From Raillietiella orientalis (taxonomy: Eukaryota), in NCBI GenBank assembly GCA_036172245.1, contig JAYWIR010000122.1, positions 62,001 through 102,055 on the forward strand: a DNA stretch of 40,055 nucleotides. The letters are read 5' to 3'. A model generated the notes under the pieces. That model was not told the DNA's origin. It ran no database searches and worked only from the letters and a program-made list of their open reading frames with translations. Both the position numbers and the translations under genes were made by a program. Positions 18,056 through 40,055 of this stretch are shown piece by piece (position 1 is the first letter of the stretch; the number at the start of each line of letters is the position of its first letter).

Positions 18056-18332
18056 TCTACAGAAGACCACTGTTGATTGTTGTTAAATCGCAGCAATCAT
18101 TAATTTACTTAAGAATAGCGTATATGTGTATTTAAATTTAATTTACCGATTATATCTTAGTATTCTTATTTAAAACATGGATTTACTGATTTCTAATGTA
18201 ATTTATTTGTGAAAAATATTTTTAATATACAGATTCAATAATTTAATTTTTATTAAGTCAAGAAAAACGTTATAATTCTATCATTTTAATCTTTATGAAA
18301 AATGTATTATCATTTATGTGTTACTGTGAAAC

Positions 18333-20311
18333 ATGGAAGCTATGGCTGTTGCCAAAATCAGATCTAAAGGTTAGTCATCAGAAAGAAAATCTTTGTAGTG
18401 TATCTGATTTTGAAGGTTCAGGAAGAGATTTATTTATATCTGAATTTATTTCACAATATTCTGAATTAACTGAAGATACACAGCAAGAAATTATTGATAG
18501 TCTTCTGTACATTAGCCCTCCATCATTGTTGCTACACATAAGAGATGTTGTTTGTAGTATACTAAAGAAGGATATTTTGACTCTTATACCAGATCTTGTG
18601 AAGGAGAAGATTCTTGGTTATTTAGATGAAAAAACATTACTGATTTGTTCATTTGTATGTAGGAGCTGGAGCAGGTAATTTTAGATTTTGCATTTAAGAA
18701 AAACTAAAAAATTTTTGAACCATATTCTTGTTTTTGATGTGTGTTATTAAAAGTGGTTTTTGAGGTATAATCAAGCATTTTAATAGCATTTTGATGAGGA
18801 AAAGTAAGCAAATGTAATGAGGAAAAAAATTTGCTTCGAAAAACGTGCATCATAAAAATATTAGTGATACTTTTATTAAGATTTTCGTAATTCTGCAATA
18901 TTCTACTTTTAGAATTGTATCATCTCAGGAAAAACTTTGGGAAAAGTACTGTTTGAACTCTCCAGCAATAAATAAAGACTTTAAGAAAGTAACTGTAACT
19001 TGGCAGCATCTATTTCAAGAGATTTATTTCAGACAGTTGGCTATAAAAAATAGTGTAGCATTTGAAATTGTGGATGAAAACAAATATCCAGAGAATTTTC
19101 ATGATATTGTTGCACTTGATTATCATGAAGGATATCTAGCATTGGGTAGGCAGAAATGTGCTTTCTTTAAATATATTCTTTCTTAGCAAGAGAATCAAAA
19201 GAATCAACTTCTGTCCATGTACTGAAATGGAATGATGATCATTTTGTAGTTTTGTTTTTTATACAATTGCATTCAAATGCAACAAGGATTTCATGCATCA
19301 AATTATTTAGAAATCACTGGTTTGTCATTGGCCACTTCTCTGGCTTTATATCATTCTGGAACTTGAAACGAAATGAAGAATGTAGATCCTTCCCTGGACA
19401 TAGTAGTCCAGTGTTTAGCATAGATTTCTTGCCTGAACTCAATTTGGCTGTAAGTGGTTCTGCTGATAGGACTGTTCGTTTATGGGCTTTTCAATCTGGT
19501 ACAGCCTTGTGGACATTGCCAGAGCTAGAACACTGGGCAGTTAAAGTAAGGTACTTTTTTTGTTAATAAAGTTTTTTTATTTTCATTTATACAGGTAATG
19601 CTGAAAAGTAGTCGCCAATTACAAGACAACCCATTTTTGAGTAACCAAAATCTCCTTCTTATACAAACACGTTATAATATACATTTTTGGACATGGAATG
19701 CCATTGTGGATACTGCCATGGGCGATATTTCTTCTATGATTTCTATCCTACGTATCCCTATTAACCCCCACACAGAACTATTTTCTCCAGGGTGCATATT
19801 TGATGGGAAAGTATTGTCTTTTATCAAGCAAGAACTTCAAGGAACAGGTGAACTCTATCAAATTTCAATTCCTGATGGAACTCAGTTATCAAAGTACAAA
19901 CTACAAACAAAAGTAAAAAAATTGTTGGGAGTAGGAAAGTGTTTTGCATTTATTTTAACAACATCTAGTAATGTTTCTGAAAGTGCTGCAGTCATACTAA
20001 ATTTGCAGTCAGATAAAAACCAAGCATGTTCTTGGGGACAAATTCCGTTATTTCATATCAAGTAAGCAAAGAGATAATAAGTAATTTTGTGAATGTGACT
20101 TTTTAGAATGAAGACTCCGGATGGTTCTCAAATTGCTCTTTGTGACAGTGAATGGCTGGATGGTCTAAGTATGTGCAATACTCGAGGATTGATTTTGGCT
20201 GTTTCCGTAACTACTCCACCACACTATTCAGCAGTACTATGTGTAAAATGGGCTGATTTTCCATCAGATGAAGGCCGAAAAATTTTTTTCAATCAAAATA
20301 CCAAATTTTAA
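18333..20311 (+). CDS. FBXW2: F-box/WD repeat-containing protein 2-like (SCF substrate adaptor)
   Basis: Exons in consistent phase: 18333-18369 (aaacATGG start; alternatively an unspliced start at ATG 18295), 18416-18674, 18913-19145, 19187-19545, 19595-20061, 20107-20311 (TAA). F-box LKKDILTLIPDLVKEKILGYLDEKTLLICSFVCRSW; WD40 FPGHSSPVFSIDFLPELNLAVSGSADRTVRLW; C-terminal FDGK, LLGVG, GSQIALCDSEWLDGLSMCNTRGLILAVS, resembling recalled FBXW2-specific blocks. Confidence 0.88.
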
Positions 20312-21669: not shown

Positions 21670-22300
21670 TATCACCCGGATATGCCGGGGCATTTATTAT
21701 TCAATTTCTTACAAAATTAGATAATAAAGTCTATAGATATTGTCTGTCGTGGTAGAACACTTGGTTCTACCACGGTTAAAGACTTGTCGTGAGCCGGTGC
21801 TAAGACAGGCGAGGTCCTCTACCGAGGCTTAGGGGAAGGAGAAACTCAAACAAAAAGAAACAAAAAGAAGGATAATGGGGAGGGAAATAGTTTTATGGGG
21901 AGGGGAGGGCAGGGAAGGTATTACTGGGCTCTTGGATCGGTCCTCTGCATCCTATGCAGGATGCTGACAAGTTCTGTTTTTGTGTTGGATGGTAGGCGCC
22001 ACCTTGTCGCGGTCTCCAAAAAGACCGTCGTCCAGTGGATGGCGTCCCTGCTTCTTTAGTCTCTTCTAGCATTCCTCCTTTCCACGATGCCGCGCACGCA
22101 GCAGAGAACTGAAACACACGTGGCTGCTGGCAGGGCGTTCCGCATCAGGAGGCGAAGGAAAATTCCTTTTGTGTCGCCCACCGGAATGTTAACAATCGAC
22201 GAGAGTCGATCCCACATGGGCCGGAGGGGGACACACTCGATGAGTAGGTGGGGGAAGGTTTCCCTTTCCCCGCACCCTGCACAATTGGCATCCACATCCA
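21670..22300 (-). mobile_element. L1/Tx1-like LINE piece A: ORF2 C-terminus with CCHC finger and structured 3'UTR
   Basis: Minus-strand CAGCGERETFPHLLIEC (CX2CX7HX4C), premature TAA at 22056-22058, natural-looking stop at 21921-21923, pyrimidine-rich UTR, AATAAA (21693-21698) and terminal hairpin CCCGG-catat-CCGGG (21675-21689). Homology with piece B ends around 22296-22311. Confidence 0.85.
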
Positions 22301-22827
22301 CCACAATGTCCGGACGTGTTTGCGCATCGCTCCGCGGAATGGTCGTTAGGAAGTTATCTTTGTTGAGTACTTGTGGTGTGTAGGGTCGCCGGTATCCTAT
22401 GGCAGATATGCCTGAGGACACTGTGATGGAGACCGGGAAGGGAGAGGCCCGATCCACTCACCCACCCAAGACGGTGGGGACATCCAGCCCCACGGAATCC
22501 AAGGCACCCGCTCCATCCGAATCGGGGGCAGCTGCCCCCTCGAGACCCTCTTAGCCGACGGCGAGGAACTGGAGCAGCATGGTTTCTGCACCATCTGGCT
22601 ATAAGCCCAGCCTTATATATAAGGTAGACTGCGTATTCCAAGGGGATATCTCGCGTGCGATCGCGAGGGAATTCCAGTGACTGGACGGGAAGGAGGAAGA
22701 CCTTGAAGGACTGTCAGTTCTGACTTGCAAACAAGCAAATCTATCCCAGCGCTTGTTAAGGAGCCCCATCGTGATCAACGGTAGCAAGGTTTTTCCCTCC
22801 TCACAAGATCAATCGACGGTGTTGCAC
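22301..22827 (+). mobile_element. LINE ORF1 N-terminal fragment 'a' (pseudogenised; absent from the ORF track)
   Basis: From ATG 22399, reading through TAG 22552 and TGA 22678: MADMPED...PTARNWSSMVSAPSGYKPSLIYKV...EEDLEGLSVLTCKQANLSQRLLRSPIVINGSKVFPSSQDQSTVLH, colinear with ORF1 'b' (MPDD...ARAWSKVAA...GYNPPLLYKV...DEEITCFSV...LICRDAALTHKLCTPVPFEGRNLLPHTVDHSIVIH). Confidence 0.8.
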
Positions 22828-24534
22828 GGGAGGAGATTTTCTCCCCACAGAGCGTTTCTAAACAGGCTGCGTGCCTGGAGCTTGGCCGAGTAGGGGGGCG
22901 GACAAATAAAAAACCGGGGATGTAAGAAGGGGGCAGCGAAGGTGTTCCAAACGGCGGCTCACCTGTGCTGGTGGTCGCACGCGTTTTTGGCGAGCTCCAG
23001 TGAGCGAAGCCAACTAGCAGTTCGTGTGAGTGTGGAAGGGCGGCCGTTGGAAGGCAGAAATGCCTGATGACGCCGCAAAACCTGCGACGGGAGACGTGAG
23101 ACCCACGTCTCGCCAAAATCTCCCCCGCCGTCCCGGCGAGGGCTTGGAGCAAGGTGGCTGCGTCGGCGACGCCCGACGTGGCCGCCGAAATTTCAGCCTA
23201 CATCAAGGAGGGCTACAATCCACCCCTTCTTTATAAGGTAGGCAACTTGTATTCTGCAATCACAACTCGCAAATTCGGGCATTACCGATGAGGAGATCAC
23301 GTGTTTTTCGGTCCGTAGCGAAGGGCAGTTTGCGGAGCTCATCTGCAGAGATGCAGCACTCACGCATAAACTCTGCACGCCCGTGCCTTTCGAGGGACGT
23401 AATCTCCTACCGCACACTGTGGATCACTCTATCGTGATCCACCTAACTGGAACAACTGTGCGGATGGACGAAGAATCCATTCGCACAGATCATAACAAGT
23501 TCGCGGAGATTTACGCGATGTGGAGTAAGCCTTCAGTTTCAGAGGCGCATTTAGTGGGCGCATGGCCGCGCGATAACATTGATCTTCCCCACAAACTGGA
23601 AGTCAACGATGAGCTCGTTGATATCTGGTTCGTTAAGAAGCAAAAATATCGCGGGCAATGCATGACTTTCGGGCATCTACGGAAGAGATGCCGGATGCAA
23701 CGTGCCCAACCTGCGGCGAAAAGGGTCATACTAGCGTCGTGTGCCCAAAGAACGTCGCTACACCGCCAGAGAACCCGGAAAAAAATAAGGGGGAGAAGGC
23801 GGAAGCCCCCCCCGAAAAAATAAACAAACAAGCAAAGGACCAACTGCCAGCAAACAAGGCAGTCGTACAGCCTAGCACGGAATCGCAAGAAGCGATTCCT
23901 TAACAGGCAATCGATGAGGATGGCTGGAAGCTGGTCCCAATCAAAATCAAACCCCCCCCAAAAAAAAACAATTAAAAACGCGAAAATTTCGAGAACATCC
24001 TCGAAACCGAAAGTGAAATCTTCGCCGTGCGATGCTACGAAGGAATGCCGCGTTACAATCGAGCGCGTGCCGTCGATGGAACTTCGATCGGCAAACGCGA
24101 AAGCCACAGTCGTCGTTGACGCCGAGCAGGCGCCGCAGGAATCCCGCGACACGTGCGTTAGCAGCCACGACAAGAATTCCGCGAAGGCATCGGAGGAACT
24201 GGCGGTCAGCTTCCAGCAGCCCCTCAAGGCTGTCAAGAAAGATGTGAGGCGGCCGGCGGAAGCCAAAGGCCCGGAGACATCCGAGTCCGAAGCGGAAGCC
24301 GGAAGCGCTCCCTCCATCGCCCTCCCGAAAAGGAAGGCGGGGCGGAAGTCCCAGAACCCTGAGCGCGTCGTTCAACCTCAGTTAGAGGAGGAGGAAATGC
24401 ACTCAGGGAACGAGGAAGCAATGTCCGCGAGGTCACGCGACTCCTCGGTAGAAAAAGCACCGCCAAACGAAACGACCGAACGACGTCCAGGAATTGACGA
24501 GACTCCTTTAGCCGAAGCGATGCCCGTCGACTAG
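22828..24534 (+). mobile_element. LINE 5'UTR plus near-complete frameshifted ORF1 'b' (gag-like, two CCHC zinc knuckles)
   Basis: ATG 23060; several frameshifts and stops. Knuckles (R<C)GQCMTFGHLRKRC at 23650-23691 and CPTCGEKGHTSVVC at 23703-23744 (CX2CX4HX4C), separated by a 1-nt frameshift. IDEDGWKLV motif after 23903; charged low-complexity tail to TAG 24534. This architecture is typical of L1/Tx1-clade ORF1. Confidence 0.85.
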
Positions 24535-26454
24535 GACAACGGCCAGCCGCCTCCCGAACAGGAGGAGATTCTTGCCCAGTGGATGGCATTCCGACTGGCA
24601 TGTCCTCTCCTTGACGCGGTCCACTTGTCCAATATCCCGCGTATGCAACAGAGCACTGCTACACACCCGGAAGCTGGCAAGGCGTCCCGCATCAGGAGTC
24701 GAAAAATGTTCTTCGGGTCGCCCCGCGGAATGTTCAAGATCGACGAGAGTCGGTCCCACATATCGCGAAGGGCAACGCACTCAATGATTGAGTGAGGAAA
24801 GGTTTCTCTTTCCCCACAGTCTGGGCAATTAGCATCCACACTCCCCTTTGTCCAGTGAGACAAGCGCGCTCTGTTTAACAGTTCCCATTGGAGCAGAAGC
24901 AACGCCGTCTCCTGCCACTGTAGGGGAGAGGTGCCGTTATCCTACGACGCCGGAGGCCACTTCACCTCCTCCGGAGGTACTTCCAGCAGCTCGCCCCAGC
25001 GTGAAAGTCCATTCGGCGGGACACTCGGGGTACTAGCGTCAGCTAGTTCCCGGAACGTCCACGCCTTCAATAATTTTTTCCTGCCTCCGATGAGGCAGGA
25101 CACTTCCCACGATGCCTCCTGGTGGCTGTCCCGAACTTCCCTGAGGGAGGGCAGTACTGGGGCAAAGGGGGTAAAGGAGGTCCACAGAAGCTTCTGTGGG
25201 TTGCTGACGATCTCCTGCAGTGGCTGAATAGCGCACCTGCTCCTACGGAGGCAGGAGAAGTCCTCATCGCTGGAGCCGTTGATTTTATCCCAAGCGGAAA
25301 CGGATTACTGGAGCCAGGTCGTCCAGTCCGCAGGGATGCAGGAGATCCACGGATTGTCTCTCAGCAGGGCAACCAATTCCCGCAGCTAAAAACCACAGTG
25401 GTTAAGGCTGCGGTCGTTGGTTACTAGGATTGAGGTCAATCCATGGCAGCCGGTTGCCTGTGAGCCAGGAGTCTTGAAGGTGCACACCAGGGTGCGGTGC
25501 AGTACTTTGCCACGAGGGCAAGCTTACGGAATTGGAGGTGTCGCTCCATGCGCTCCAGCGTCAGGACACCAAGTCCACCGTCCCTGCGTGGAGCGCACAA
25601 GTCTTTAAGACGAACGCGGGGCCTCCGATTGCCCCAGAGGGCTTTTCTAATGAGGCCCCTTGTCCTTTGTCGAAATTGGGGTGGTATGGGGCATACAAAA
25701 AGCAGGTGGCGGAGGAGGGGGGTCGCAAAAGCGTTCCACACCGCGGTTCGTTCCTGCAAGTAAAACTTGCCGTCCCAGAACGGGCCGATCGCCAACTCCA
25801 CCTTTTGTAGACGGTCGGACCAGGCTTCTGCAGCGCAGGAGTCCCTCAACGGAACGCCGAGGTACTTAAAGTACCCGCCCGTGGGCATCCCCAAGCGGAT
25901 CCAGTCCGACCGTCCTGCCCGCGACGAGTCCGTTGAAACGATCAACGACTTCGCCCTGTTTACCTCGAAGCCCGTCGTACGGTTCAGCACCTCAAAAAAA
26001 TCTTGGAGCGCCGATGCCAGGGTGGACCCGGGAAGCAGAAGCAGAAGCTCGTTGGCATAGGCCGACAAGGCAGGCGTGCCGGGACATGAGCTTGCAGGGA
26101 TTCCAAAGTCTCCCTGTATGCACTCAGCACCAACTCAAAGTAGATGCTGAAGAGCAGGGGACTCAGGCTGTCACCCTGCCGGATGCCGCGACGAACCGGC
26201 ACGCCGTACACGTGCCGGCCGCTGAAACTGATGTCAATTAGCGCGAAGTGCCAGCAGGAGCGCAGTTACGCCAGGAAGACGGCCGGAAATCCCAAGAGTT
26301 CCAAAAGCTCCTGGAGGAGCTCATCGTCGACGCAATCGAAAGCTTTACGCAAATCGACTGCGACCGCAAGGGCTCCGGGCGCCGCATCATCCCCCCGGCT
26401 TCCCTCCCCCCGGTCAGTGGAGAGTCCAGGACTCTCCCGACCTAGCTGAGCCAC
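24531..26454 (-). mobile_element. L1/Tx1-like LINE piece B: decayed ORF2 from the reverse transcriptase through the C-terminal CCHC finger
   Basis: RT motifs AVDLRKAFDCVD..LLELLGFP, RRGIRQGDSLSPLLF, SAYANEL (YADD box mutated), GFEVNRAKS, FKYLGVPL, PRRDGGLGV; finger CPDCGERETFPHSIIEC. Multiple frameshifts; no endonuclease domain or 3'UTR present. Confidence 0.93.
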
Positions 26455-29400
26455 GAATGCGGTTCGGCTCTCCCTAACGGTAATTTACACTTTATAGCAA
26501 ATGGAGGCGTCGGTAAGAGGCGCTTCAGCGCAATAGTGAAATCTGCTGATTTCGATTTGAATCTAAAACCAAAAGAGCTGCAAATTTGGAAATCACCATG
26601 AAATTGAGCGTAACAAAACATTCCCTATATAATTCCGACACAGGTTACTATGAAAACAACACTGGGTCCAAAGTAGTGAGCCGTAATGAAGTGTCGATGT
26701 CTTCTCAATATTACCCTGAATCCTGTAAATTGGAATGCTGTGCGGCTATCCTCGTCGGGAATTTTCCACTTACTACAAATGGATGCGTCGGGAAGAGGCG
26801 CATCAGTGCAGTGGTGGAATCTGATGATATCAAATTGAATATCAAACACAAAGAGTTACAAATTTGGAATTCATCATAAGATTGTGCGTAGCAAAATGTT
26901 CCCTATATAATTCCCACACTAGGTACCATGAAAATAACACTCAGCACAAAGTAATGAGCCGTAATGAAGTGTCGATCTCTTCTCAATATTACCCTGTATA
27001 CTGGAAATAGGAATAAGGTTCGGCTTTCCATAACGGTGATTTCCCATTCACTGCGAATGGAAGAGTCGGTAAGAGGGGAAGCGGAGCAAAGCGGAAATCT
27101 GCTGATTCGGAATTGATTACAAAACACAAATTGTGTAAAATTTCGACCACATCACGAATGATAGTGATGGGAAACAATCATTATATAATTCCGACACTGG
27201 TTACCATGAAAACAGCACTAAGCCCAAACTACTAAGCCGTAATAAAGTGTCGAACTCTTCCTATTGTCAAACTGAATCCCTGAAATTAGAATGCTGTGCG
27301 ACTATCCATGTCGGGGATTTGCCGCTAACTACGAATGGAGGCATTGGTAAAAGGCGCTTCGGGGCAATACTGAAATAAGCTGATTTCCATTTGAATAGAA
27401 AACACAAAGAGTTGCAAATTTGTAATTCGCCTTGAAATTGTGCGTAGTAAACCATTCGCTATATAATTCCGACACTGGTTACTAGGAAAACAACACAGAG
27501 CCCAAAGTTACCTGCCCTAATGATGAGTCGAACAATTCGCAATCTTTCTAACAATCCTGAAAATTGGAATGCTGTACGGCTCTCCACATCGGGGATTTGC
27601 GATTCACTGCAAATGGAGGCGTCGGTAAGAAGCGGCTCAGTGCAATGGTGCAATCTGTTGATTTCGAATCGACTATGAATCAAAAAGAGTTGCAGATTCG
27701 GAACACATCATCGAATTGTGCGTAGCAAAACATTCCTTATAGATGTCTGACACTGGTTACCATGAAAACAACACAGATCCCAAAGTACTTAGCCGTAATG
27801 CAGTGTCGATCTCTTCTCAATGTTACCCTGAATCCTCGTAATTGCAATGCTGTTCGGCTATCCATGTCGAGAATTTTGCACTTACTGCAAATGGATGCGA
27901 CAAGAAGTCTCCTAACAGTGTAGTGAGTAAATCTGCTGATTTGGTATCGATTACAGAACACAAAGAGTTGAAAATTTGGACAACATCATGAATGATTGCG
28001 ATGGGAAACATTCACTATATATATCCGACACTGGGTACCATGAAAACAACACTGACTTCAATGTACTAAGCCGTAATGCAGTGTTGATCTCTTTTCAATG
28101 TTACACTGAACCATCGAATTCGGAATGCTGTTCGGCTCTCCATAACGATAATTTGCCCTGTATTGCAAATGGAGGTGTCGGTAAGAGGCGTGAAGCATTC
28201 CCTATATAATTCCGAAACTGATTACCATGATAATAATTGTGAGTCCAAAGTCCCGTGCATTGGTGGAACTTTTCTCACTGTTAGTCTCAATCTAGTAAAT
28301 TGGAGTGCTGTACGGCTCTCAATAAGGGGAATTTGCACTTAACTGCAAATGGAGGCGTCGGTAAGAGGCGCTTCAGTGGAATACTGAAATCTGCTGACTT
28401 CGAATTGAACATAAAACAAATGGAGTTGGAAATTTGGAACACATCATGAAATTGTGCGTGGAAAAACATCCCCTATAGATATCCGACACTGGTTACCTAG
28501 AAAACAACTCTCAGCCAAAAGTACTAAGCCGAAATGAAGTTTCCATCTCTGCTGAATTTTAATCTGAATCCTGTTAATTGGAATGAGGTTTGGATCTCCA
28601 TAACTGTAATTTTCTTTTCACTGCGAATGGTGGCCTCGGAAAGACGCGTCAAGGTGCAACCCTGAAATCGGCTGATTGGGAATTGATTACAAAACAGAAA
28701 GTGTTTAAAATTTGGACCACATCACGAATAATTGTGATGGGAAACATTCATTATATAATTCCGAAACTGGTTACCGTAAAAAAAACACTGAGCCCGAAGT
28801 ACTGAACCGTAATGCAGTATCGAACTCTTACTGAAGTCAATCTGAATCCTGGAAATTAGAATGCTACGCAGCCGTCCATGTCGGGAATTTGCCACTTATT
28901 GCAAATAAACGCATCGCGAAGAGGCGCATCAGTGCAATCGGGCAATCTGCTGATATCGAATAGATCATAAAACACAAAGAGTTGAGGATTTGGAACACAT
29001 CATAAAATTGTGCGTAGCAAAGCATTCCGTATATAATTAGGACACTGGATACTATGGAAATAACACAGAGCCCAAAGTACTAAGCCGTAATGCAGTGTTG
29101 ATCTCTTCTCAATGTTACTCTGAATCCTCGAAATCGGAATGCTGTTCGGCTCTCCATAACGGTAATTTGCAATTTACTGCAAATAGAGGTGTCGCTAAGT
29201 GGCGTGAAGCATTCCCTATATTATTCGGACACTGGTTACCATGAAAACAAGACGGTGTCCAAAGTCCCCCCCCCTAATGATGCGTCAAACTTTTCTGACT
29301 GTTACTCTCAATCCAGTAAATTGGAAAGCTATTCGGCTCTCCATAACGGGAATTTGCCACTAACTGCAAATGGAGGCGTCGGTAAGTGGCGGCTCAGTGC

Positions 29401-30250
29401 AATGGTGCAATCTGCTGATATCGCATACATTATAAAACACGATGAGTTGCAGATTTGGACACACCATAAAATTGTGCGTAGCAAAACAATCCGTATATAA
29501 TTAGGACACTGGTTACCATGAAAACAACACTGAGTTCAAAGTACGAAGCCGTAATGCAGTGTTGATCTCTTTTCAATGTTGCACCGAACCCTCGAATTCG
29601 GAATGCTGTTCGGCTCTCCATAACGGCAATTTCCTGTTTATTGGAATGGAGGTGTCCGTAAGAGACGTGAAGCATTCCCTATATAATTGCTACACTGACT
29701 AACATGATAATAATTGCAAGTCCAAAGTCCCTTGCCCTAATGATGTGTCGAACTTTTCTCACTGTTACTCTCAATCCAGTAAATTCATGTGCTGTACGGC
29801 TCTCCATAGCGGGAATTTGCACTTTACTGTAAATGGAGGCGTCGGTAAGAGGCGCTACAGTGGAATACTGAAATCTGCTGACTTCGAATTGAACATAAAA
29901 CAAATGGAGTTGGAAATTTGGAACACATCATGAAATTGTGCGTCGCAAAACATTCCCTATATAATTCCGTCACTGGTTACCATGAAAACAACACGGAGTC
30001 CAAGGTCCATCGCCCAAATGATGTCTGGAACTTTTCACAATGCTACTCTCAATCTAGAAAATTGGAATGCTGTAAGGCTCTTCACATCGGGGATTTGCCA
30101 ATCACTGCGACTGGAGGCGTCGGTAAGAAACGGCAAAGTGCAATGGTGAATCTGTTGATTTCGAATCGATTATGAATCAAAAAGAGTTACAGATTCGGAA
30201 CACGTCATGAAATTGTGCGTACCAAAACATTTTCTATATAAATCCCACAT
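26455..30250 (+). repeat. Tandem satellite array S1, ~278-bp diverged monomers (11 near-full-length plus 3 short 186-187 bp units, plus partial ends)
   Basis: TATATAATTCC-like anchor at 26626, 26904, 27182, 27460, 27738, 28016, 28203, 28474, 28752, 29030, 29217, 29494, 29680, 29958, 30235. Confidence 0.96.
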
Positions 30251-33200
30251 ATTGTACCCTATTAAAAGTCATTTGGAACCACGAAACACTGTAAACTTAG
30301 ACCACAAAAGAAATTTCCCGTTCAGAAAACTTGATCTCCGTGTTACAAAAATGGTTGCCATTAAAACAACTCAAAGTCCAGTGAGCCTATACCTGAAGTA
30401 GTTTGCACTTGTTGTGATTTATTCACTTTTAGTGAAAAATGGGGTGGGAATGGGCATGTGATAAACGTTAATTTGCATCCCCGTGAAGAGGGACCAATGA
30501 CAATGCTCCGAAGGAGTGCAATGGCCGAGTGGACGTAATTAGAATTCATCTGTAACCACCAAACACTGGAAATTTAGCCCACAAAAAAAAAATCCAGGTC
30601 CAGAAACTTGATCTCCGTATTACAAAAATGGTTGCCATGAAAGCAACTCCAAGTCTAGTCTGCCGAATCCTGAAGAATTTCGCACTTGTTGTGATTTATT
30701 CACTTGTTGAGAGGGATGGAGTTGCAATGGGCATGTGATAAACCTGCATTTGCATTACCGTGGAGAAACACCCGAGAGAATGCTCCGAAATAGGCAATGG
30801 TTGATTGGAAGCAAGCAGAATTCATTTGCAACCACCAAACCCAAGAAATTTAGAGCACAAAAGGAATTCCGCGGTCATAAGACTTGATCTCCGTATTACG
30901 AAAATGGTTGCCATTAAAACAACTCAAAGTCTAGTGTGCCTATCAATGAATAAGTTTGCGCATGTTATGATTTATTCACTAGTTACAAGGGATGGCTTTG
31001 CGATGGGCATGTGATAAACGCGAATTTGCATCACCGTTGCGAAACCCATTTAGGATACTCCGAAGGAGTGCAATGGCGGATTGGACGCAATTAGAATTCA
31101 TTTGGAATCCCGTAACACTAAAAATTTTGACCACAAAAGGAATTTCGCGATCAGAAAACTTGATCTCCGTACTACAAAAATGGTTGCAAAAAAAACAACT
31201 CAAAGTCCTGTGTGCCTATTGCTGAAAAAGTTTTCTCTTTTTGTGGTTTATTTACTGTTTGCAAGGGATGGACTTGCAATATGCATGTGAGAAACTTGCA
31301 CATGCACAACCGTGGAGAGTAAACCGTCAGAATGCTCCGAAGGAAGAAATGTTTCATTGGACACAATTAGAATTCATTTGAAACAACCAAACCCTAGAAA
31401 TTGAGACCACAAATGGAATTTCCCGGTCATAAAACTTGATCTCCGTATTAGATAAATGGATGCCATGAAAGCAACTCAAAGTCCCTTGTGCCTATCCCTG
31501 AACAACCTAGCGCTTGTTGTGATTTATTCAGTTGTTACAAGGGATAGCGTTGCAATGGCCATGTCATAAACGTGAATTTGCATCCCCGTGGAGAGGGACT
31601 TTTAAGAATGCTCCGAAGAAGTGCAATGGTTGATTGGACGCAATTGGCATTCATTTCCAACCACAAAACACTAAAAATTTAGACCACAAAAGGAATTTCC
31701 CGGTCAAAAAACTTGATTTCCGTATTACAAAAATGGTTGCCGTCAAAGCAACTCAAAGTCCAGTGTGCCGATACCTGAAGAAGTTCGCACTAGTTGTGAT
31801 TTATTCACTTGTTCCAAGGGATGAGGTTGGAATGGGCATGTGATAAAGAAGCATTTGCATAACCGTGGAGAGACACCCGAGAGAATGCTCCGAAGGAGGC
31901 AATGGTTGATTGGACGCAAAAAGAGTTCATTTGGAATCACCAAAAATTTGGAAATTTAGACCACCAAAGGAATTTCCCGGTCATCAAACTTGATCTCCGT
32001 ATTACACAAATGGTTGCCATGACAACAACTCAAAGTCCAGTGTGCCTATGCCTGAATCAGTTTGCGCTTTTTGTGATTTATTCACTTGTTGCAAGGGATG
32101 GGGTTGCAATGGTCATGTGGCAGAAGTGCATTTGCATTACCGTGGATGGGGAACCGTGAGAATGCTGCGAAGGAGGAAATGTTTGATTGGACACAATTCA
32201 AATTCGTTCTGAACCACCAAACCCTTAAAATTTAGACCACAAAAGGAATTTCGCGGTCATAAAACTTGACCTCCGTAGTACAAAAATGGTTGCCATGAAA
32301 ACAACTCAAAGTACAGTGTGCCTATGCCGGAATCAGTTTGCGCTTGTTGTGATTTGTTCACTTGTTGCAAGGGATTGGGTTGAAATGGGCATGTGGTAGA
32401 CGTGCACTTGCATTACCGTGGAGAGGCAATCTTGAGAAAGCTCCGAAGGAGGAAATGTTTCATTGGACACAATTGGAATTCATTTGGAACACCGAAACAC
32501 TGGAAATTTTGACAACAAAATGAATTTCGCGTTCATAAAACCTGATCTCCGTATTAGAAAAATGGTTCCCAAGAAACCAACTCAAAGGCCAATGTGCCTA
32601 TCCCTTAATAAGTTTGCCCTTGTTGTGATTTATTCACTTGTTGCTACGGATGGGGTTGGAATGTGCATCTGATAAACGTACATTTGCATCACCTTGGATA
32701 GAAATCATTGAGAATTCTCCGAAGGAGTGCAATGTCTGATTAAACGCAATTGGAATTCATTTGCAACCAGCAAACACTGAAAATTTTGACCACAAAGGGA
32801 ATTTCGCGATCATAAATCTTGATCTCCGTATTAGAAAAATGGTTGCTAAGAAAAGAACTCAAGGTCCATTGTGCCTATCCCTGAATAACTTTGCTCTTGT
32901 TTTGTTTTATTTACTAATTGCAAGGTGTGTTGCGACAATGGCCATGTTGTAAACGTGTACTTTCATTACCGTGGATAGGGAACCGTGAGAAAGCTCAGAA
33001 GGAAGAAATGTTTGATTGGCACAATTAGAATGCATTTGGAACCACCGAACACTACAAATTTGTACCACAAAAGGAATTTCACGGTCATAATACTTGATCT
33101 CCGTATTAGATAAATGGTTGCCATGAAAGCAACTCAAAGTCCAGTGTGCCTATACCTGAAGAAGTTTGCAGTTGTTGCTATTTGTTCACTTGTTGAAAGG

Positions 33201-36200
33201 GATTCGGTTGGAATGGCCATGTGGTAAACGTGCATTTGCATAAACTTGGAGAGACACCCGAGAGAATGCTCCTAAGGAGTGCAATTACTGATTGGACGCA
33301 ATTAAAATTCATCTGGAACCACCAAATACTAGAAATTTAGACCACAAAAGGAATTTCACGGTCCTTAATCTTGATCTTCGTATTAGAAAAATGGTTGTCA
33401 TGAAAGCAACTCAAAGTCCAGTGTGCCTAATTTTGAATAAGCTTGGGCTTGTTGTGATTTATTCACTTGTTACAAGGGATGGCGTTTCAATGGGCATGTG
33501 ATAAACGTGCATTTGCATCACCGTGGAGAGGGACCATTGAGAATTCCCCGAATTAGTGCAATGGCTGATTGGACGCAATTGAAATTCATTTGCAACCACC
33601 AAACACTAAAAATTTTGACCACAAAAGGAATTACGCGATCATAAATCTTGATCTCCGTTTTAGAAAAATGGTTGCCAAGAAAGGAACTCAAAGTCCAGTG
33701 TGCCTATCCCTGAATAACTTTGGGCTTGTATTGTTTTATTTACTTATTGCAAGGTATGTTGTGACAATGTCCATGTTGTAAACGTGCACTTTCATTACCT
33801 TGGAGAGGGAACCGTGAGAAAGCTCCGAAGGAAGCAATGTTCGATTGGCACAATTAGAATGCATTTCGAAGCACCAAACACTACAAAGTTGTACCCCAAA
33901 AGGAATTTCGCGGTCATAATACTTGATCTCCGTATTAGAAAAACGGTTGCCATGAAAAAAACACCTCAAAGTCCAGTGACTTTATCCCTGAATAAGTTTG
34001 CGCTTGTTGTGATTTATTCAGTTGTTACAAGGGATAGCGTTGCAATGGGCATGTCATAAACGTGAATTTGCATCCCCGTGGAGAGGGACTTTTAAGAATG
34101 CTCCGAAGAAGTGCAATGGTTGATTGCACGCAATTGGCATTCATTTCCAACCACAAAACACTGAAAATTTAGGCCACAAAAGGAATTTCCCGGTCAAAAA
34201 ACTTGATCACCGTATTACAAAAATGGTTGCCATGAAAGCAACTCAAAGTCCAGTGTGCGTATCCCTGAATAAGTTTGCGCTTTTTATGATTTCTTCCCTT
34301 GTTACAAGGGATGGCGTTGCAATGGGCATGTGGTAAACGTGAATTTGCGTTCCCGTGGAGAAGGAATTTTGAGAATGCTCCGAAGGAGTGCAATGGCTGA
34401 TTGGACGCAATTGGAATTCATTTGGAACCACCAAACACTAAGAATTTAGACCGCAAAAGGAATTGAGAGGTCGTGAAACCTGATCTCCGTATTAAATAAA
34501 TGGTAGCCATGAAAGCAACTTAAAGTCTATTGTGCCTATACCTGAAGAAGTTTGCAGTTGTTGCGATTTGTTTACTTGTTGAAAGGGATGCGGTTGGTAT
34601 GGGCATGTGGTTTACGTGCATTTGCATAACCGTGGAGAGACACCCAATAGACTGCTCCGCAGGAGGCAGTAGTTGATTGGACGCAATTAGAATTCATTTC
34701 GAATCACCAAACATTATAAATTTAGGCCACCAAAGGGATTTCGGGTGCATAAATCTTGATCTCCGTTTTAGTAAATTGGTTGCCAACAAAGGAACCCAAA
34801 GTCCAGTGTGCCTATTCCTGAATAACTTTGCGCTTGTTTTGTTTTATTTACTTATTGCAAGGTATGTTGTGACAATGTCCATGTAGTAAACGTGCACTTG
34901 CATTACCGTGGAGAGGCAACCGTGAGTAAGCTCCGAAAGAAGAAATGTTCGATTGGCACAATTAGAATGAATTTCGAAGCACCAAACACTGCAAATTTGT
35001 ACCCCAAATTTATTTCGCGGTCATAATACTTGATCTCAGTATTAGAATAAGGGTTGCCATGAAAACACCTCGAAGTCCAGTGACTTTATCCCTGGATAAA
35101 TTTGCGCTTGTTGTGATTTATTCAATTGTTGCAAGGGATGACTTTACAATTGCTATGTGAAAAACGTTTATTTGCATCCCCGTGGAGGGGGACCATTGAG
35201 AATGCTCCGAAAAAGTGTAATGGCTGATTGGACGCTATGAGAATTCATTTGGAACCAGCATGCACTGGAAATTTAGAACACAAAAGAAATTTCCCGGTCA
35301 TAAAACTTGAACTACGTCTTTCCAAAATGCTTACCATGAAAAGAACTCAAAGTGAAGTGTGCCTATACCTGAATAAGTTTGCAGTTGTTGCGATTTGTTC
35401 ACTTGTTGAAAGGTATGAGGTTGGAATGAGCATGTGGTAAACCTGCATTTGCATAACCGTGAATAGGGAACCGTGAAAATTCTCCGAAGTGGGAAATGTT
35501 TGATTGCACACAATTCCAATTCATTCTGAACCACGAAACCCTTCAAGTTTAGATCACAAAAGGAATTTCGCGGTCATAGAACTTGATCAATTTATAACAA
35601 GAATGCTTGCCATGAAAGCAACTCAAACTCCAGTGTGCGTATCCCTGAATAAGTTTGCGCTTTTTATGATTTCTTCCCTTGTTACAAGGGATGGCGTTGG
35701 AATGGGCATGTGATGAACGTGCATTTGCAGCACCGTGGAGAGGGAGCATTGAAAATTCTCCAAAGGAGTGCAATGGCTGAATGGACGCAATTGGAAATCA
35801 TTTGGAACCACCAAACACTGAAAATTTTGAAAACAAAAGGAATTTCGCGATCATAAATCTTGATCTCCGTTTTAGAAAAATGGTTGCCAAGAAAGGAACT
35901 CAAAGTTCAATGTGCCTATCCCTGAATAACTTTGCTCTTGTTTTGTTTTATTTACTTATTGCAAGATATGTTGTGACAATGTCCATGTTGCAAAAGTACA
36001 CTTGCATTACCGTGGAGAGGGAACCGTGAGTAAGCTCCGAAGGAAGAAATGTTCGATTGGCACAATGAGAATGCATTTCGAAGCACCAAACACTGCAAAT
36101 TTGTACCCCAAAAGATATTTCGCGGTCATAATACTTGATCTCCGTATTAGCAAAACGGTTGCCATGAAAAAAACACCTCAAATTCCAGTGAATTTATCCC

Positions 36201-37932
36201 TGAATAGGTTTGAGGTTGTTGTGTTTCATTCACTTGTTGCAAGCGATGACGTTACAATTGGCATGTGAAAAACCCAAATTTGCATCACCGTGGAGAGTCC
36301 AATTGAGAATTATCCGAATTAGTGCAATGGCTGATTGGACGCAATTAGAATTCATCTGGAACCAGCATACACTGGAAATTTAGACCACAAAAAGAATTTT
36401 CCCGTTCACAAAACTTGATCTCGGTATTGCAAAAATTGTTGCCATTAAAGGAACTCAATCTCCAGTGTGCCTATACCTAAAGTAGTTTGCACTTGTTGTG
36501 ATTTTTTTACTTGTTGAGAGGAATGGGGTTGAAATGGGCATGTGATAAACGTTAATTTGCATCCCCGTAAAGAGGGACCATTCAGCATGCTCCGAAGGAG
36601 TGCAATGGCTGATTGGACTCAATTAGAATCCATTTAGAACCCCGAAACACTGAAAATTTTGACCACAAAACGAATTTCCCGGTCATAAATCTTGATTTCC
36701 GTATTAGAAAAATGGTTCCCAAGAAAGCAACTCTAAAGCAAGTGTGCCTATCCCTGAATAAGTTTGCGCTTGTTCTCATTTATTCAATTGTGGCAAGGGA
36801 TGGGGCTGGAATGGGAATGTGATAAACGTCCATCAGCATAACCGTGGAGAGACACCCGAGAGAATGCTCCGAAGGAGGCAATGGTTGATTGGACGCAATT
36901 AGAGTTCATTTGGAATCACCAAACTTTGGAAATTTAGACCACCAAAGGAATTTCGCGGTCATAAATCTTGATCTCTGTATCCCAAAAATGGTTGCCATGA
37001 AAACAACTCAAAGTCCAGTGTGCCTATTCCTGAATAAGCTTGCCCTTCTTGTAGTTTATTTACCTTTTGCAAGGAACGGGTTCAGAATAGGCATGTGGGA
37101 AACGTGCACTTGCATAACCGTGGATAGGGAACCGTGGGAATGCTCCGAAGTAGGAAATGTTTCATTGTACACAATTCGAATTCATTCTGAACCTCGAAAA
37201 CCTTCGAATTTAGACCACCAAACGAATTTTGCGGTCATAAACTTGATCTCCGTAGTACAAATATGGTTGCCATGAAAACAACTCAACGTCCAGTGTGCCT
37301 ATGCCTGAATCAGTTTCGCTTGTTGTTATTTATTCACTTGTTGCAAGGGATTGGGTTGCAATGGGCATGTGGTAGACTTGCACTTGCATTACCGTGCAGA
37401 AGCAACCGTGAGAAAGCTCCTAAGGAGGAAATGTTTCATTGAACACAATTGGAATTCATTTGGAACAGCGAAACACTGGAAATTTTGGCAACAAAATAAA
37501 TTCGCGTTCATAAAACTTGATCTCCGTATTAGAAAAATGGTTCTCAAGAAAGCAACTCTAAGGCCAGTGTGCCTATCCCTAAATAAGTTTGCGCTTGTTG
37601 TGATTTATTTACTTGTTGCTACGGATGGGGTTGGAATGTGCATGTGATAAACGTGCATTTGCATCACCGTGGATAGAAACCATTCAGAATTCTCCGCAGA
37701 AGGCCATGTTTGATTGGACGCAATTAAAATTTATTTGGAACCAGCACACATTTTAAATTTAGACCACAAAAGAGAGTTCCCCGTCATAAAGCTTGAACTA
37801 CGTCTTTCCAAAATGCTAACCATGAAATAAACTCAAAGTCTAGTGTGCCTATACCTGAAGAAGTTTGCAGTTGTTGCAGTTTGTTCACTTGTTGAAAGGG
37901 ATGCAGTTGGAATGGGCATGTGGTAAACGTGC
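30251..37932 (+). repeat. Tandem satellite array S2, ~276-277-bp monomers, about 28 copies
   Basis: TTGATCTCC-like anchor at 30331, 30608, 30884, 31160, 31436, 31713, 31990, 32266 ... ~37793 (27 intervals, mean ~276.4 bp). Core TTGATCTCCGTATTACAAAAATGGTTGCCATGAAAGCAACTCAAAGTCCAGTGTGCCTAT. Confidence 0.96.
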
Positions 37933-40055
37933 GAAGCATCCATTTTCTATGAGTGGGAAATTCCCTTCATGGACACCCGCACAACCTTCCAATTTCCTTG
38001 GTGCAGAAGAACATTGAGATGAGTTCGAAGTTTCATTAGGGTGGGGTACTTTGACCTCGGTGTGGTTTTCATGGTTACCAGTGTCGGAGTTATAAAGAGA
38101 ATGTTTCCCTTCGCTCTGATTCATTATATGGTCCAAATTTGCAACTATTTGGGGGTTGTAACCACTTCAAAGTCATCAGATTTCAACATTGCACTTTTGC
38201 GCCTCTTCACGAAGGATTCATTTGCAGTGAGTGGCAAATTCTTGTTATGGAGACCCGCACATCCTTGCAATTTCCTTGTTTAAGAAGCACATTGAGATGA
38301 GTTCGAAGTTTCATTAGAGTGAGGCACTTTGTCCTCTGCGTGGTTTCCATGGTAAACAGTATCGGAGTTATAAAGAGAATGTTTCCCTTCGCTCTGATTC
38401 ATTATATAGTCCAAATATGCAACTTTTTGGAAATTGTAACCACCTTGAAGTCAGCAGATTTCACCATTGCACTTTTGCGCCACTTCACGAAGCATCCATT
38501 TCCAGTGAGTGGCAGATTCCCGTGATGGAGACCCGCTCATCCGTGCAATTTCCTTGGTTCAGCAGCACATTGAGAAGAGTTCGAAGTTTCATTAGGGTGG
38601 GGCACTTTGTCCTCTGTGCGGTTTCCATGGTAACCAGTGTCGGAGTTAGAAAGAGAATGTTTCCCTACGCTCTGATTGAGTATATGGTCCAAATTTGCAA
38701 CTTTTTGGGGGTTGTAACCACTTCGAAGTCATCAGATTCCACCTTTGCACTTTTGCGCCTCTTCGCGAAGGAACCATTTGCAGTGAGTGGCAAATTCCCG
38801 TTATGGAGACCCGCATAACCTTCGAATTTCCTTCGTTCAGAAACACATTGAGATGAGATCGAAGTTTCATTAGAGTGAGGCACTTTGTCCTCTGTGTGCT
38901 TTTCATGGTAAGCACTGTCGGAGCAAGAAAGAGATTGTTTCTTTTCGCTCTGATTCATTATATGGTACAAATTTACGACGTTTTGGGGGTTGTGATCACT
39001 CCGAAGACAGCAGATTTCACTAATGCACTTTTGCGCCTCTTCACGAAGCTTCTATTTGCAGTGAGTGGCAATTTGCCGACATGGAAACCCGCACAACCTT
39101 CCAATATCCTTGGTTCAGAAGAACATTAAGATGAGTTCGAAGTTTCATTAGGGTGGGGCACTTTGGCTTCTGTCTGGTTTTCATAGTAACCTGTGTCGAA
39201 GTTATAAAGAGAATGTTTCCCTTTGCTCTGATTGATTATATGGTCCAAATTTGCAACTTTTTGGGGGATGTAATCACTCCGAAATCAGCAGACATCACCA
39301 TTGCACTTTTGCGCCTCTTCAAAAAGAATCTCTTTGCAGTGAGTGGCAAATTCCATTCATGGACGCCCGCATAATCTTCGAATTTCCTTGGTTCAGGGGA
39401 ACATGGAGATGAGTTCGAAGTTTTATTAGGATGGAGCACTTTGGCATCTGTGTGGTTTTCACGGTAACCAGTGTCCGAGTTAGAAAGACAATGTTTCCAT
39501 TCGCTCTGATTCATTATATTGTCCAAATTTGCAACTTTTATGGGGTTGTAATGACTTCGAAGTCAGCAGATTAACCATTGCACTTTAGCGTTTCATCCGA
39601 TAGCATCCATTTGGTGTGGGAGGGAAATTCCATTCATGGACAACCGCAGAACCAACCAATTTCCTTGGTTCAGAAGAACATGAAGAGAAGTTCGATGTTT
39701 CATTAGGGTGTGGCAGTTTGGCCTCTGTGCAGTTTTCACGGTAACCAGTGTCAAAGTTAGAAAGACAATGTTTCCATTCGCTCTGATTCATTATATTGTC
39801 CAAATTTGCAACTTTTATGGGGCTGTAAGCACTTCGAAGTCAGCAGATTTCACCATTGCACTTTTGCGCCTCTTCACGGAGCATCTATTTGCAGGGAGTC
39901 GCAAATTTCCTTCATGAACACCCGCACAACCTTCCAATTTCCTTGGTTCAGAAGAACATTGAGATCAGGTCGAAGTTTCATTAGGATCGAGCACTTTGGC
40001 GTCTGTGTGGTTTTCACGGTAACCAGTGTCCGAGTTAGAAAGACAATGTTTCCAT
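37933..40055 (-). repeat. Tandem satellite array S3, ~278-bp monomers, reverse-complement subfamily of S1; runs off the window
   Basis: GAGTTCGAAGTTTCATTAG anchor at 38021, 38299, 38577, 38855, 39133, 39411, ~39687, ~39966. The reverse complement reads ...CTCCATAACGGGAATTTGCCACTCACTGCAAATGG...AAGAGGCGC...AGTGCAATGGTGAAATCTGCTGACTTCGAA...CCGACACTGGTTACCATG, as in S1. Confidence 0.95.

What the first reader, a model, noticed from the sequence alone, without database searches (positions are those of the whole stretch)
26455..40055. Three different-looking ~277-bp satellites form one layered superfamily with conserved boxes at identical spacing
Seen: S1, S2 and reverse-complemented S3 share box A TGGTTRCCATG(A/G)AA, box B AGTGCAATGG at +163 and box C AAATTTRGA at +218. 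Examples: S1 27476->27639 and 27198->27416; S2 30352->30515->30570; S3 on minus 38636->38473->38418. The sequence between boxes is strongly diverged between S1 and S2. Established: centromeric/pericentromeric satellites such as primate alpha satellite form layers of related subfamilies, and conserved boxes can be protein-binding sites. Inference: unit length and box spacing are under constraint (binding protein or chromatin phasing), making this a candidate undescribed centromere-associated satellite system.
Basis: partly seen in the sequence, partly recalled or inferred. Interest (0 to 1): 0.7.

Follow-up and report, generated by a model that had tools for sequence, protein, structure and literature searches.

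The report
Old diverged 278-bp satellite superfamily
The last 13.6 kb of this animal-genome window holds three adjoining tandem-repeat arrays that are diverged relatives of one old 278-base repeat, but the supposed conserved "boxes" are barely better conserved than the rest of the unit, so this looks like an ordinary ageing satellite block.

Summary
The three arrays are real: S1 at 26455-30250 (+), S2 at 30251-37932 (+), and S3 at 37932-40055 (inverted). They are homologous. The S1 and S2 consensuses align colinearly at 157 of 268 positions (z=14; 0 of 500 shuffles reach it). The match appears in only one register, and profile HMMs cross-hit in register.

Unit length is the same, 276-278 bp, so equal box spacing follows directly from colinear, indel-poor homology.

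The boxes are not clear conservation peaks:
- Site rates are nearly uniform (gamma alpha 6.0).
- Box A evolves at 0.80 of the mean rate (p about 0.05). Boxes B and C evolve at 0.94 and 0.88.
- Three S1 units share a 91-bp deletion that removes boxes B and C.

The arrays meet at abrupt, out-of-register junctions, one of them an inversion. They are old, with mean pairwise identity of 72-83% within an array and no homogeneous higher-order repeat.

My reading is an ageing satellite DNA superfamily at the gene-proximal edge of a repeat block, beside decayed LINE fragments. A centromere role is untestable here.

The parts
22000..26454 (-). Decayed GC-rich (57%) non-LTR retrotransposon (LINE) fragments. 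Their truncated 5' side abuts the first satellite unit.
   Evidence: A frame at 25987-26265 (-) matches RVT_1 (E=9e-4, below the Pfam cut-off) and the reverse transcriptases of R2 (8ibw, E=5e-4) and LINE-1 ORF2p (E=4e-3 to 5e-3). Two C-terminal Cys/His-bearing frames at 22056-22457 and 24531-24941 are 76% identical over 224 bp.
26455..30250 (+). Array S1: 15 units of a 278-bp monomer. One is a boundary partial that starts at consensus position 92, eleven are full or near-full, and three are deleted units. This is the most diverged array.
   Evidence: nhmmer map. Mean pairwise identity is 0.72 among 9 full monomers. TRF gives period 278 at 72% matches, plus 187- and 464-bp periods.
28032..28219 (+). 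Short S1 unit (188 bp) with a 91-bp deletion of consensus positions about 159-249, which removes boxes B and C. The same deletion is present at 29046-29232 and 29510-29699.
   Evidence: Identical breakpoints in all 3 short units. nhmmer shows hmm 1-160, then 250-278. Paired with a full unit, it gives TRF's 464-bp period.
29046..29232 (+). Second copy of the deleted S1 unit (187 bp).
29510..29699 (+). Third copy of the deleted S1 unit (190 bp).
30251..37932 (+). Array S2: 27 full units of 274-279 bp plus two partials. It starts at S2 position 176 and ends at position 119. It is the distant subfamily.
   Evidence: nhmmer map. Mean pairwise identity is 0.785 over 351 pairs. It is separated from S1+S3 by 0.62 changes per site with 100% SH-aLRT support. 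Patchy relic higher-order structure: lag 4 (units 13, 17, 21 at 92-93%) and a lag-18 duplication (units 6-9 vs 24-27).
37933..40055 (-). Array S3: inverted, 7 full units of 277-278 bp plus two partials. It runs off the window end. It is sister to S1.
   Evidence: nhmmer map. Mean pairwise identity is 0.83 over 21 pairs. S1 vs S3 consensus matches at 226 of 278 positions. The clade has 99% support.
30249..30252 (.). Abrupt S1/S2 junction, about 100 bp out of register (S1 position 277 joined to S2 position about 176). There is no filler and no hybrid unit.
37931..37933 (.). Inversion junction. S2 position 119 (+) is joined to S3 position 149 (-), with 1-2 nt of overlap.
27198..27211 (+). Example of box A (TGGTTACCATGAAA). 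This is the only box with a faint sign of slower change.
   Evidence: Exact match. Relative site rate is 0.80. Within-array diversity is 0.10, 0.14 and 0.15, against array means of 0.28, 0.22 and 0.17.

Best explanation
This is a block of old satellite DNA. A single ancestral tandem repeat of about 278 bp diverged into two deep lineages, S1+S3 and S2, about 0.6 substitutions per site apart. The arrays of these lineages were then brought side by side by illegitimate breaks and one inversion.

Shown:
- The arrays are homologous and colinear, with equal unit length.
- The junctions are abrupt.
- Divergence within each array is high.
- Site rates are nearly uniform.

Inferred:
- The arrays grew and were maintained by in-register unequal exchange and block duplication. 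Evidence is the relic 4-unit and 18-unit repeats and a propagated deletion dimer.
- The arrays then stopped being homogenised and have decayed roughly neutrally.
- They sit at the gene-proximal edge of a larger repeat or heterochromatin domain bordered by LINE debris.
- The boxes are simply the longest runs of unchanged bases expected at about 56-59% identity. Box A may be a weak exception.
For: - Homology: consensus alignment z=14-15, with 0 of 500 shuffles as good. There is a unique register peak of 127 matches against a mean of 70. nhmmer cross-hits fall in register, down to E=6.5e-7, and there are none in 1-26454.
- Subfamily structure: three clean clades among 45 monomers.
- Uniform rates: gamma alpha is 6.0 to 6.2. 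Clumping of S1=S2 matches is no greater than in permutations (variance p=0.54).
- Old arrays: mean pairwise identity is 0.72, 0.785 and 0.83. Higher-order structure is only patchy.
- Rearranged, not graded: the junctions are S1 pos 277 | S2 pos 176 and S2 pos 119 | inverted S3 pos 149.
- Box loss is tolerated: 3 of 15 S1 units share one deletion that removes B and C.
- No other signal: no coding signal, no Rfam family at E<=1 except one chance miRNA hit at E=0.92, no excess fold energy (z -0.4 to 1.2), no internal subrepeat.
Against: - Mild rate heterogeneity exists. Lag-1 autocorrelation of site rates is 0.157 (p=0.004), and box A is the lowest 14-bp window (p=0.047).
- Columns identical in all three consensuses are slightly less diverse within S1 and S2 (p about 0.02), though not within S3 (p=0.49).
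- Indels are rare. Substitution-to-indel ratios are 70:1, 31:1 and 186:1 within arrays, and there is essentially one indel in the first 240 columns between S1 and S2. This could reflect a constraint on unit length.
- The only in-window comparator is two LINE fragments with 51 mismatches to 2 gap openings. It is similar but tiny, and the fragments were formerly coding.
- The chromosomal position is unknown. No genome is held for this window.
- The abrupt junctions could be assembly errors. No reads could be examined.
Confidence: 0.8

Rival explanations
1. This is a functional, centromere-associated satellite system in which unit length and three boxes are held by a binding protein or by nucleosome phasing.
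For: - Unit length of 276-278 bp is kept across about 0.6 substitutions per site, and indels are scarce.
- Box A matches at 13 of 14 positions between the S1 and S2 consensuses and has the lowest rate of any 14-bp window (0.80, p=0.047).
- Divergence within arrays falls from the gene side outward. Substitutions against the consensus are 16.9%, 13.2% and 9.6%; this is my arithmetic from the counts. An age gradient toward a younger core beyond the window would give this pattern.
- Unchecked earlier notes of this scan report large satellite and LINE-nest domains in the same genome.
Against: - Boxes B and C evolve at 0.94 and 0.88 of the mean rate, and three propagated units have lost them.
- Exact boxes are present in only 11, 16 and 17 of 43 monomers.
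- Most of the commonest k-mers lie outside the boxes.
- There is no homogeneous higher-order repeat.
- There is no match to the core CENP-B-box pattern, a motif I recalled from memory.
- There is no dyad-symmetry excess.
- The arrays start 6 kb from an F-box/WD40 gene.
- 278 bp is not an evident nucleosome multiple (my own reasoning).
Confidence: 0.1
2. The S1/S3 and S2 arrays were seeded independently from diverged copies of one mobile element (a SINE, MITE or Helitron-type internal repeat). On this reading they do not descend from one ancestral tandem array.
For: - The arrays lie against LINE debris.
- Transposon-seeded satellites are common (general knowledge; compare the review PMC10048060, which I saw only in a search listing).
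- The last about 35 columns of the unit are the least conserved: 13 of 36 are identical in all three consensuses.
Against: - Both lineages have the same unit length and are colinear around the whole circle of the monomer. Independent seeding would not be expected to reproduce this.
- There is no similarity to the 26.4 kb of non-satellite DNA in the window.
- There is no tRNA, 5S, 7SL or snRNA signal.
Confidence: 0.07
3. The S1-S2 resemblance is chance similarity between unrelated repeats of like composition.
For: A single S2 monomer finds no S1 or S3 monomer by blastn at E<1e-3. Individual monomers are only 41-51% identical.
Against: - 0 of 500 shuffles reach the consensus alignment score (z=14).
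- The register peak is unique: 127 matches against 70 +/- 7.6.
- Reciprocal profile hits fall in register.
Confidence: 0.01

Closest known systems
Satellite DNA superfamilies as defined in satellitome studies (Ruiz-Ruano et al. 2016, PMC4935994; I read the passages on superfamilies, methods and Table 1)
   Same: - Tandem families of similar unit length share detectable homology below 80% identity.
- They sit next to each other on a chromosome. That paper's SF2 is an example, with 273- and 278-bp families at one location.
- S2 vs S1/S3 at 56-59% consensus identity fits the superfamily rank. S1 vs S3 at 81% sits on that paper's family/variant border.
   Different: - This family is not any family I could find in print. 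Four k-mers gave no paper, and the LmiSat16-278 primers are absent from the window.
- The depth of the split with unchanged unit length, about 0.6 substitutions per site, is large.
Layers of old alpha satellite flanking primate centromeres (Shepelev et al. 2009, PMC2729386; I saw only the title and the start of the abstract in a search listing)
   Same: Adjacent arrays of related monomer subfamilies differ in age and are no longer homogenised. Divergence decreases across the three arrays in one direction.
   Different: - No active homogeneous core is visible, and no symmetry can be checked.
- The junctions are out of register and one array is inverted.
- The unit is 278 bp, not 171 bp.
- No CENP-B-like box was found (recalled motif).
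- Centromere location is unknown.
Library model of satellite DNA evolution (recalled from general knowledge; the term occurs in the papers listed)
   Same: Several related satellite variants coexist in one genome and are amplified to different extents in separate arrays.
   Different: The model concerns copy-number shifts among species. Only one window of one genome was available here.

Membership tests
Satellite DNA superfamily (sensu Ruiz-Ruano 2016) | Head-to-tail tandem arrays of a unit longer than 100 bp | tested here: met
   TRF gives periods of 277-278 with 6.1, 27.8 and 7.6 copies. nhmmer maps 53 units or part-units in all.
Satellite DNA superfamily (sensu Ruiz-Ruano 2016) | Families share detectable homology at less than 80% identity | tested here: met
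   S1 vs S2 matches at 157 of 268 positions and S3 vs S2 at 167 of 264, each with 0 of 500 shuffles as good. S1 vs S3 matches at 226 of 278 (81%), which is borderline same-family. The criterion is quoted from PMC4935994.
Satellite DNA superfamily (sensu Ruiz-Ruano 2016) | Non-coding | tested here: met
   The two longest ORFs inside the arrays have no Pfam family at E<=0.01. There is no Rfam family at gathering score.
Centromeric satellite with layered subfamilies (alpha-satellite type) | Occupied by CENP-A / located at the primary constriction | not testable with these tools
   No genome is held and no sequencing run was listed.
Centromeric satellite with layered subfamilies (alpha-satellite type) | Homogeneous higher-order repeat core | tested here: not met
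   The highest pairwise identity in S2 is 0.938, and the mean by lag is 0.776-0.803. Only patchy lag-4 and lag-18 relics are present. The window ends inside S3, so a core further on is not excluded.
Centromeric satellite with layered subfamilies (alpha-satellite type) | Age gradient of layers, symmetric about the core | tested here: inconclusive
   Divergence from the consensus is 16.9%, 13.2% and 9.6% for S1, S2 and S3 (my arithmetic). This is monotonic, but with only three arrays and only one side visible.
Centromeric satellite with layered subfamilies (alpha-satellite type) | Short protein-binding box conserved above background (CENP-B-box-like) | tested here: inconclusive
   Box A has a relative rate of 0.80 (p=0.047). 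Boxes B and C are at 0.94 and 0.88. The core CENP-B-box pattern, recalled from memory, has 0 matches.
Transposon-derived tandem array | Unit matches part of a mobile element, or dispersed copies with termini exist | tested here: inconclusive
   There is no similarity to window 1-26454 and no small-RNA-derived signal. The rest of the genome could not be searched.

The most novel reading that the evidence does not exclude
Unit length (276-278 bp) and the near-palindromic box A (TGGTWRCCA...) are actively maintained across two satellite lineages that are about 0.6 substitutions per site apart. On this reading the family is the sequence substrate of a chromatin or kinetochore-related binding factor in this animal. 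The window would then show the decayed outer layers of a centromere whose younger core lies beyond its right end.
Probability: 0.1. Interest if true: 0.55.

Novelty: new member of a known kind. Interest (0 to 1): 0.22.

Why it matters
The finding is useful mainly for annotation. It shows that arrays which look unrelated by BLAST belong to one deep satellite superfamily. It fixes their boundaries, subfamilies, a diagnostic 91-bp deletion variant and two rearrangement junctions. These can serve as markers when the repeat domains of this genome are mapped.

It also gives a worked negative control. Shared 'boxes' at equal spacing between diverged satellites are what colinear homology at about 56-59% identity produces by itself. 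They should not be read as binding sites without a rate test.

The one open point of wider interest is the scarcity of indels. If it proved specific to the satellite, it would bear on why monomer length is so stable.

Tried and rejected
- Whole genome: none is held for this window.
- Public sequencing runs for 30352-33391: none was listed.
- Homologues of the F-box exon, to place the organism: none scored. The protein atlas returned only generic WD40 clusters.
- Earlier-findings look-ups by sequence for S2, S3 and S1 stretches: nothing. I could not link this family to the 278-base repeat noted elsewhere in the genome.
- Literature: '278 bp' and '277 bp' satellite searches gave nothing relevant. 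'conserved box' with subfamilies gave 0 papers. Four k-mers of the units gave 0 papers. The supplement of PMC4935994 holds none of three box-containing k-mers, and the LmiSat16-278 primers are absent from the window.
- Metagenome scans with two 20-mers: 0 loci and 4 loci. None of the 4 contains the satellite by nhmmer at E<=10, so they are chance matches.
- Rfam at E<=1 over 26300-31500: only a miRNA hit at E=0.92.
- Single-strand DNA folding: consensus z-scores were -0.05, -0.43 and +1.18. Monomer means (7 monomers per array) were -0.26, -0.08 and +0.17. There is no dyad-symmetry excess.
- Internal subrepeat of about 90 bp: the best self-shift z-scores were 1.8-2.4, which is not convincing.
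- PDB search with the 232-aa LINE frame: no hit.
- In-window calibration of the neutral substitution-to-indel ratio: only one 224-bp LINE pair was available, which is too little.
Full report
**Context**

The window is a piece of an animal genome.
- Bases 3-22 kb are AT-rich (about 30% GC). They carry intron-split exons with a Myb_DNA-binding_7 domain (17344-17676), an F-box (18247-18675) and WD40 repeats (19171-19563).
- Bases 22.0-26.45 kb are GC-rich (53-59%) and consist of decayed non-LTR retrotransposon pieces on the minus strand. A frame at 25987-26265 matches RVT_1 weakly (E=9e-4). It also matches the reverse transcriptases of R2 (E=5e-4) and human LINE-1 ORF2p (E about 5e-3) among solved structures.
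- From 26455 to the window end there is nothing but tandem repeats.
- No rRNA, tRNA or other Rfam family is present.

**Anatomy of the arrays**

I built profile HMMs from 9, 27 and 7 full monomers. The partial units, the three deleted S1 units and two near-full S1 units were left out of these first sets; the two near-full units were added for the tree. The profiles give the following map.
- S1 runs from 26455 to 30250 on the plus strand. It starts at consensus position 92, directly against the LINE debris. It holds 15 units.
- S2 runs from 30251 to 37932 on the plus strand. It starts at position 176 and ends at position 119. It holds 27 full units of 274-279 bp.
- S3 runs from 37932 to 40055 in inverted orientation. 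It starts at position 149, holds 7 full units, and is cut by the window end.
- Three S1 units (28032-28219, 29046-29232, 29510-29699) share one 91-bp deletion with identical breakpoints, at consensus positions about 159-249. Paired with a full unit, this variant gives the 464-bp period reported by TRF.
- Both inter-array junctions are abrupt, without filler or hybrid units, and out of register. They are S1 pos 277 | S2 pos 176, and S2 pos 119 | inverted S3 pos 149 with 1-2 nt of overlap.

**Is S2 really related to S1 and S3?**

Single-monomer blastn says no. An S2 monomer hits only S2 (29 HSPs), whereas S1 and reverse-complemented S3 find each other at 64-75% identity.

At the consensus level the answer is yes.
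- S1 vs S2 aligns at 157 of 268 positions, almost without gaps (z=14.2; 0 of 500 dinucleotide shuffles as good).
- S3 vs S2 aligns at 167 of 264 (z=14.8). S1 vs S3 aligns at 226 of 278.
- I ran an alignment-free control that compares the S1 and S2 consensuses ungapped in every circular register. It gives 127 matches at register 0 and 111 at register -1, which reflects one 1-bp indel near column 165. All other registers average 70 (sd 7.6). The reverse-complement control peaks at 91.
- nhmmer profiles cross-hit in register. The S1 profile hits 18 S2 units (best E=6.8e-7). The S2 profile hits 3 S1 units and 5 S3 units (best E=6.5e-7). Nothing in 1-26454 is hit.
- An ML tree of 45 monomers gives three clean clades. 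S2 is separated from S1+S3 by 0.62 changes per site.

The finding's first refutation criterion, that the alignment is no better than shuffles, is therefore not met. The three arrays are one superfamily.

**Are the boxes special?**

In a joint alignment, 132 of 276 shared columns are identical in all three consensuses. At that density, long identical runs are expected.
- For S1=S2 matches, the best 10-, 14- and 20-bp windows and the longest run (10) are reached by 25-30% of permutations. The variance of window counts is ordinary (p=0.54).
- For columns identical in all three consensuses, the figures are marginal: p=0.045 to 0.18, and variance p=0.04.
- Within arrays, box A is less diverse than average (0.10, 0.14 and 0.15 against 0.28, 0.22 and 0.17). 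Boxes B and C are below average only in S3. The lowest 12-bp window overall is matched in 56% of permutations.
- Site-specific rates on the ML tree are nearly uniform (gamma shape 6.0; relative rates 0.54-1.66). Box A runs at 0.80, B at 0.94 and C at 0.88. The lowest 14-bp window is box A (p=0.047). The lowest 10-bp window is ordinary (p=0.42). There is mild lag-1 autocorrelation of rates (0.157, p=0.004).
- Exact boxes are present in 11 (A), 16 (B) and 17 (C) of 43 full monomers. From average per-site retention, my own arithmetic on the counts gives about 6-8 expected for box A.
- The commonest 14-20-mers in the arrays mostly lie elsewhere in the S2 unit. Of the top six at each of four word lengths, one 20-mer contains box A.
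- The propagated deletion variant lacks B and C altogether.

The second refutation criterion, uniform conservation with no box peaks, is therefore essentially met. Box A is a weak possible exception. Equal spacing of the boxes is not separate evidence. It follows from colinear homology with almost no indels.

**Length stability**

Indels are scarce.
- Substitution-to-indel event ratios against the array consensus are 422:6 for S1 (full units only; deleted and partial units were dropped), 986:32 for S2 (all 27 full units) and 186:1 for S3.
- The S1 and S2 consensuses differ by essentially one indel over the first 240 columns.

This is the best remaining argument for a constraint on unit length, but I could not calibrate it. 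The only other paralogous pair in the window is two LINE fragments, which show 51 mismatches to 2 gap openings. The three 187-190-bp units show that length is not inviolable.

**Age and organisation**

- Mean pairwise identity within arrays is 0.72 (S1, 36 pairs), 0.785 (S2, 351 pairs) and 0.83 (S3, 21 pairs).
- S2 has only patchy relics of higher order. Units 13, 17 and 21 are 92-93% alike at lag 4, and units 6-9 resemble units 24-27 at lag 18 (85-94%).
- These are old arrays that are no longer homogenised.
- Divergence falls from the gene side outward (S1 > S2 > S3). This fits an age-layer picture but rests on three arrays only.
- S2 is flanked on both sides by members of the sister lineage. 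However, the orientations, the register and the ages of the flanks do not fit a simple expansion of S2 inside an S1/S3 array.

**Other tests**

- No coding signal in the longest ORFs inside the arrays.
- No excess of single-strand fold energy.
- No internal subrepeat.
- No match to the core CENP-B-box pattern, a motif I recalled from memory.
- No relatives in metagenome contigs.
- No trace in the searchable literature.

**Comparison with what is known**

By the criteria of Ruiz-Ruano et al. 2016 (PMC4935994, passages read), S2 and S1/S3 are different families of one superfamily, and S1 and S3 sit at the family/variant border. That paper describes the same kind of thing, for example its SF2 of 273- and 278-bp families at one chromosomal site.

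The primate 'layers' model (PMC2729386, listing only) is a looser analogy. It has no visible core here, its symmetry cannot be tested, and the junctions here are rearrangement breakpoints.

**Verdict**

This is a genuine but ordinary old satellite superfamily at the edge of a repeat domain. The functional box and centromere reading is unsupported by the sequence and untestable here. Earlier notes of this scan report a 278-base tandem repeat of 231 copies, and satellite/LINE-nest domains, elsewhere in the same genome. I could not verify that they are the same family.

Noticed in passing
window 3001-40055: CpG observed/expected is 0.44 in the AT-rich genic part. It is 0.96 in the LINE debris, 0.95 in S1, 0.72 in S2 and 0.68 in S3. 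The old repeats are much less CpG-depleted than the gene region. This suggests that germline methylation here targets gene bodies more than these repeats.
   Followed up: no
window 17344-20065: Plus-strand exons encode a Myb_DNA-binding_7 domain (17344-17676), an F-box (18247-18675) and WD40 repeats (19171-19563). They lie about 6 kb from the satellite block. The F-box exon found no homologue in the word-indexed protein search.
   Followed up: partly
window 22056-22457 and 24531-24941 (minus): Two LINE C-terminal frames with Cys/His motifs lie in the same orientation and are 76% identical over 224 bp. At least two LINE copies therefore lie head-to-tail or nested between the genes and the satellite.
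   Followed up: partly
window 1866-2450 (+): A 194-aa open frame with a Cys/His-rich tail has no Pfam family.
   Followed up: no
window 6958-7013 and 11937-12016: Two short palindromic stretches of 56 bp (89% self-complementary) and 82 bp (80%) lie in the AT-rich genic region.
   Followed up: no
window 33392-36435: A local four-unit (about 1.1 kb) periodicity occurs inside S2: units 13, 17 and 21 at 92-93%, units 18 and 22 at 84%. I did not test whether that satellite is a four-unit repeat of this family.
   Followed up: no
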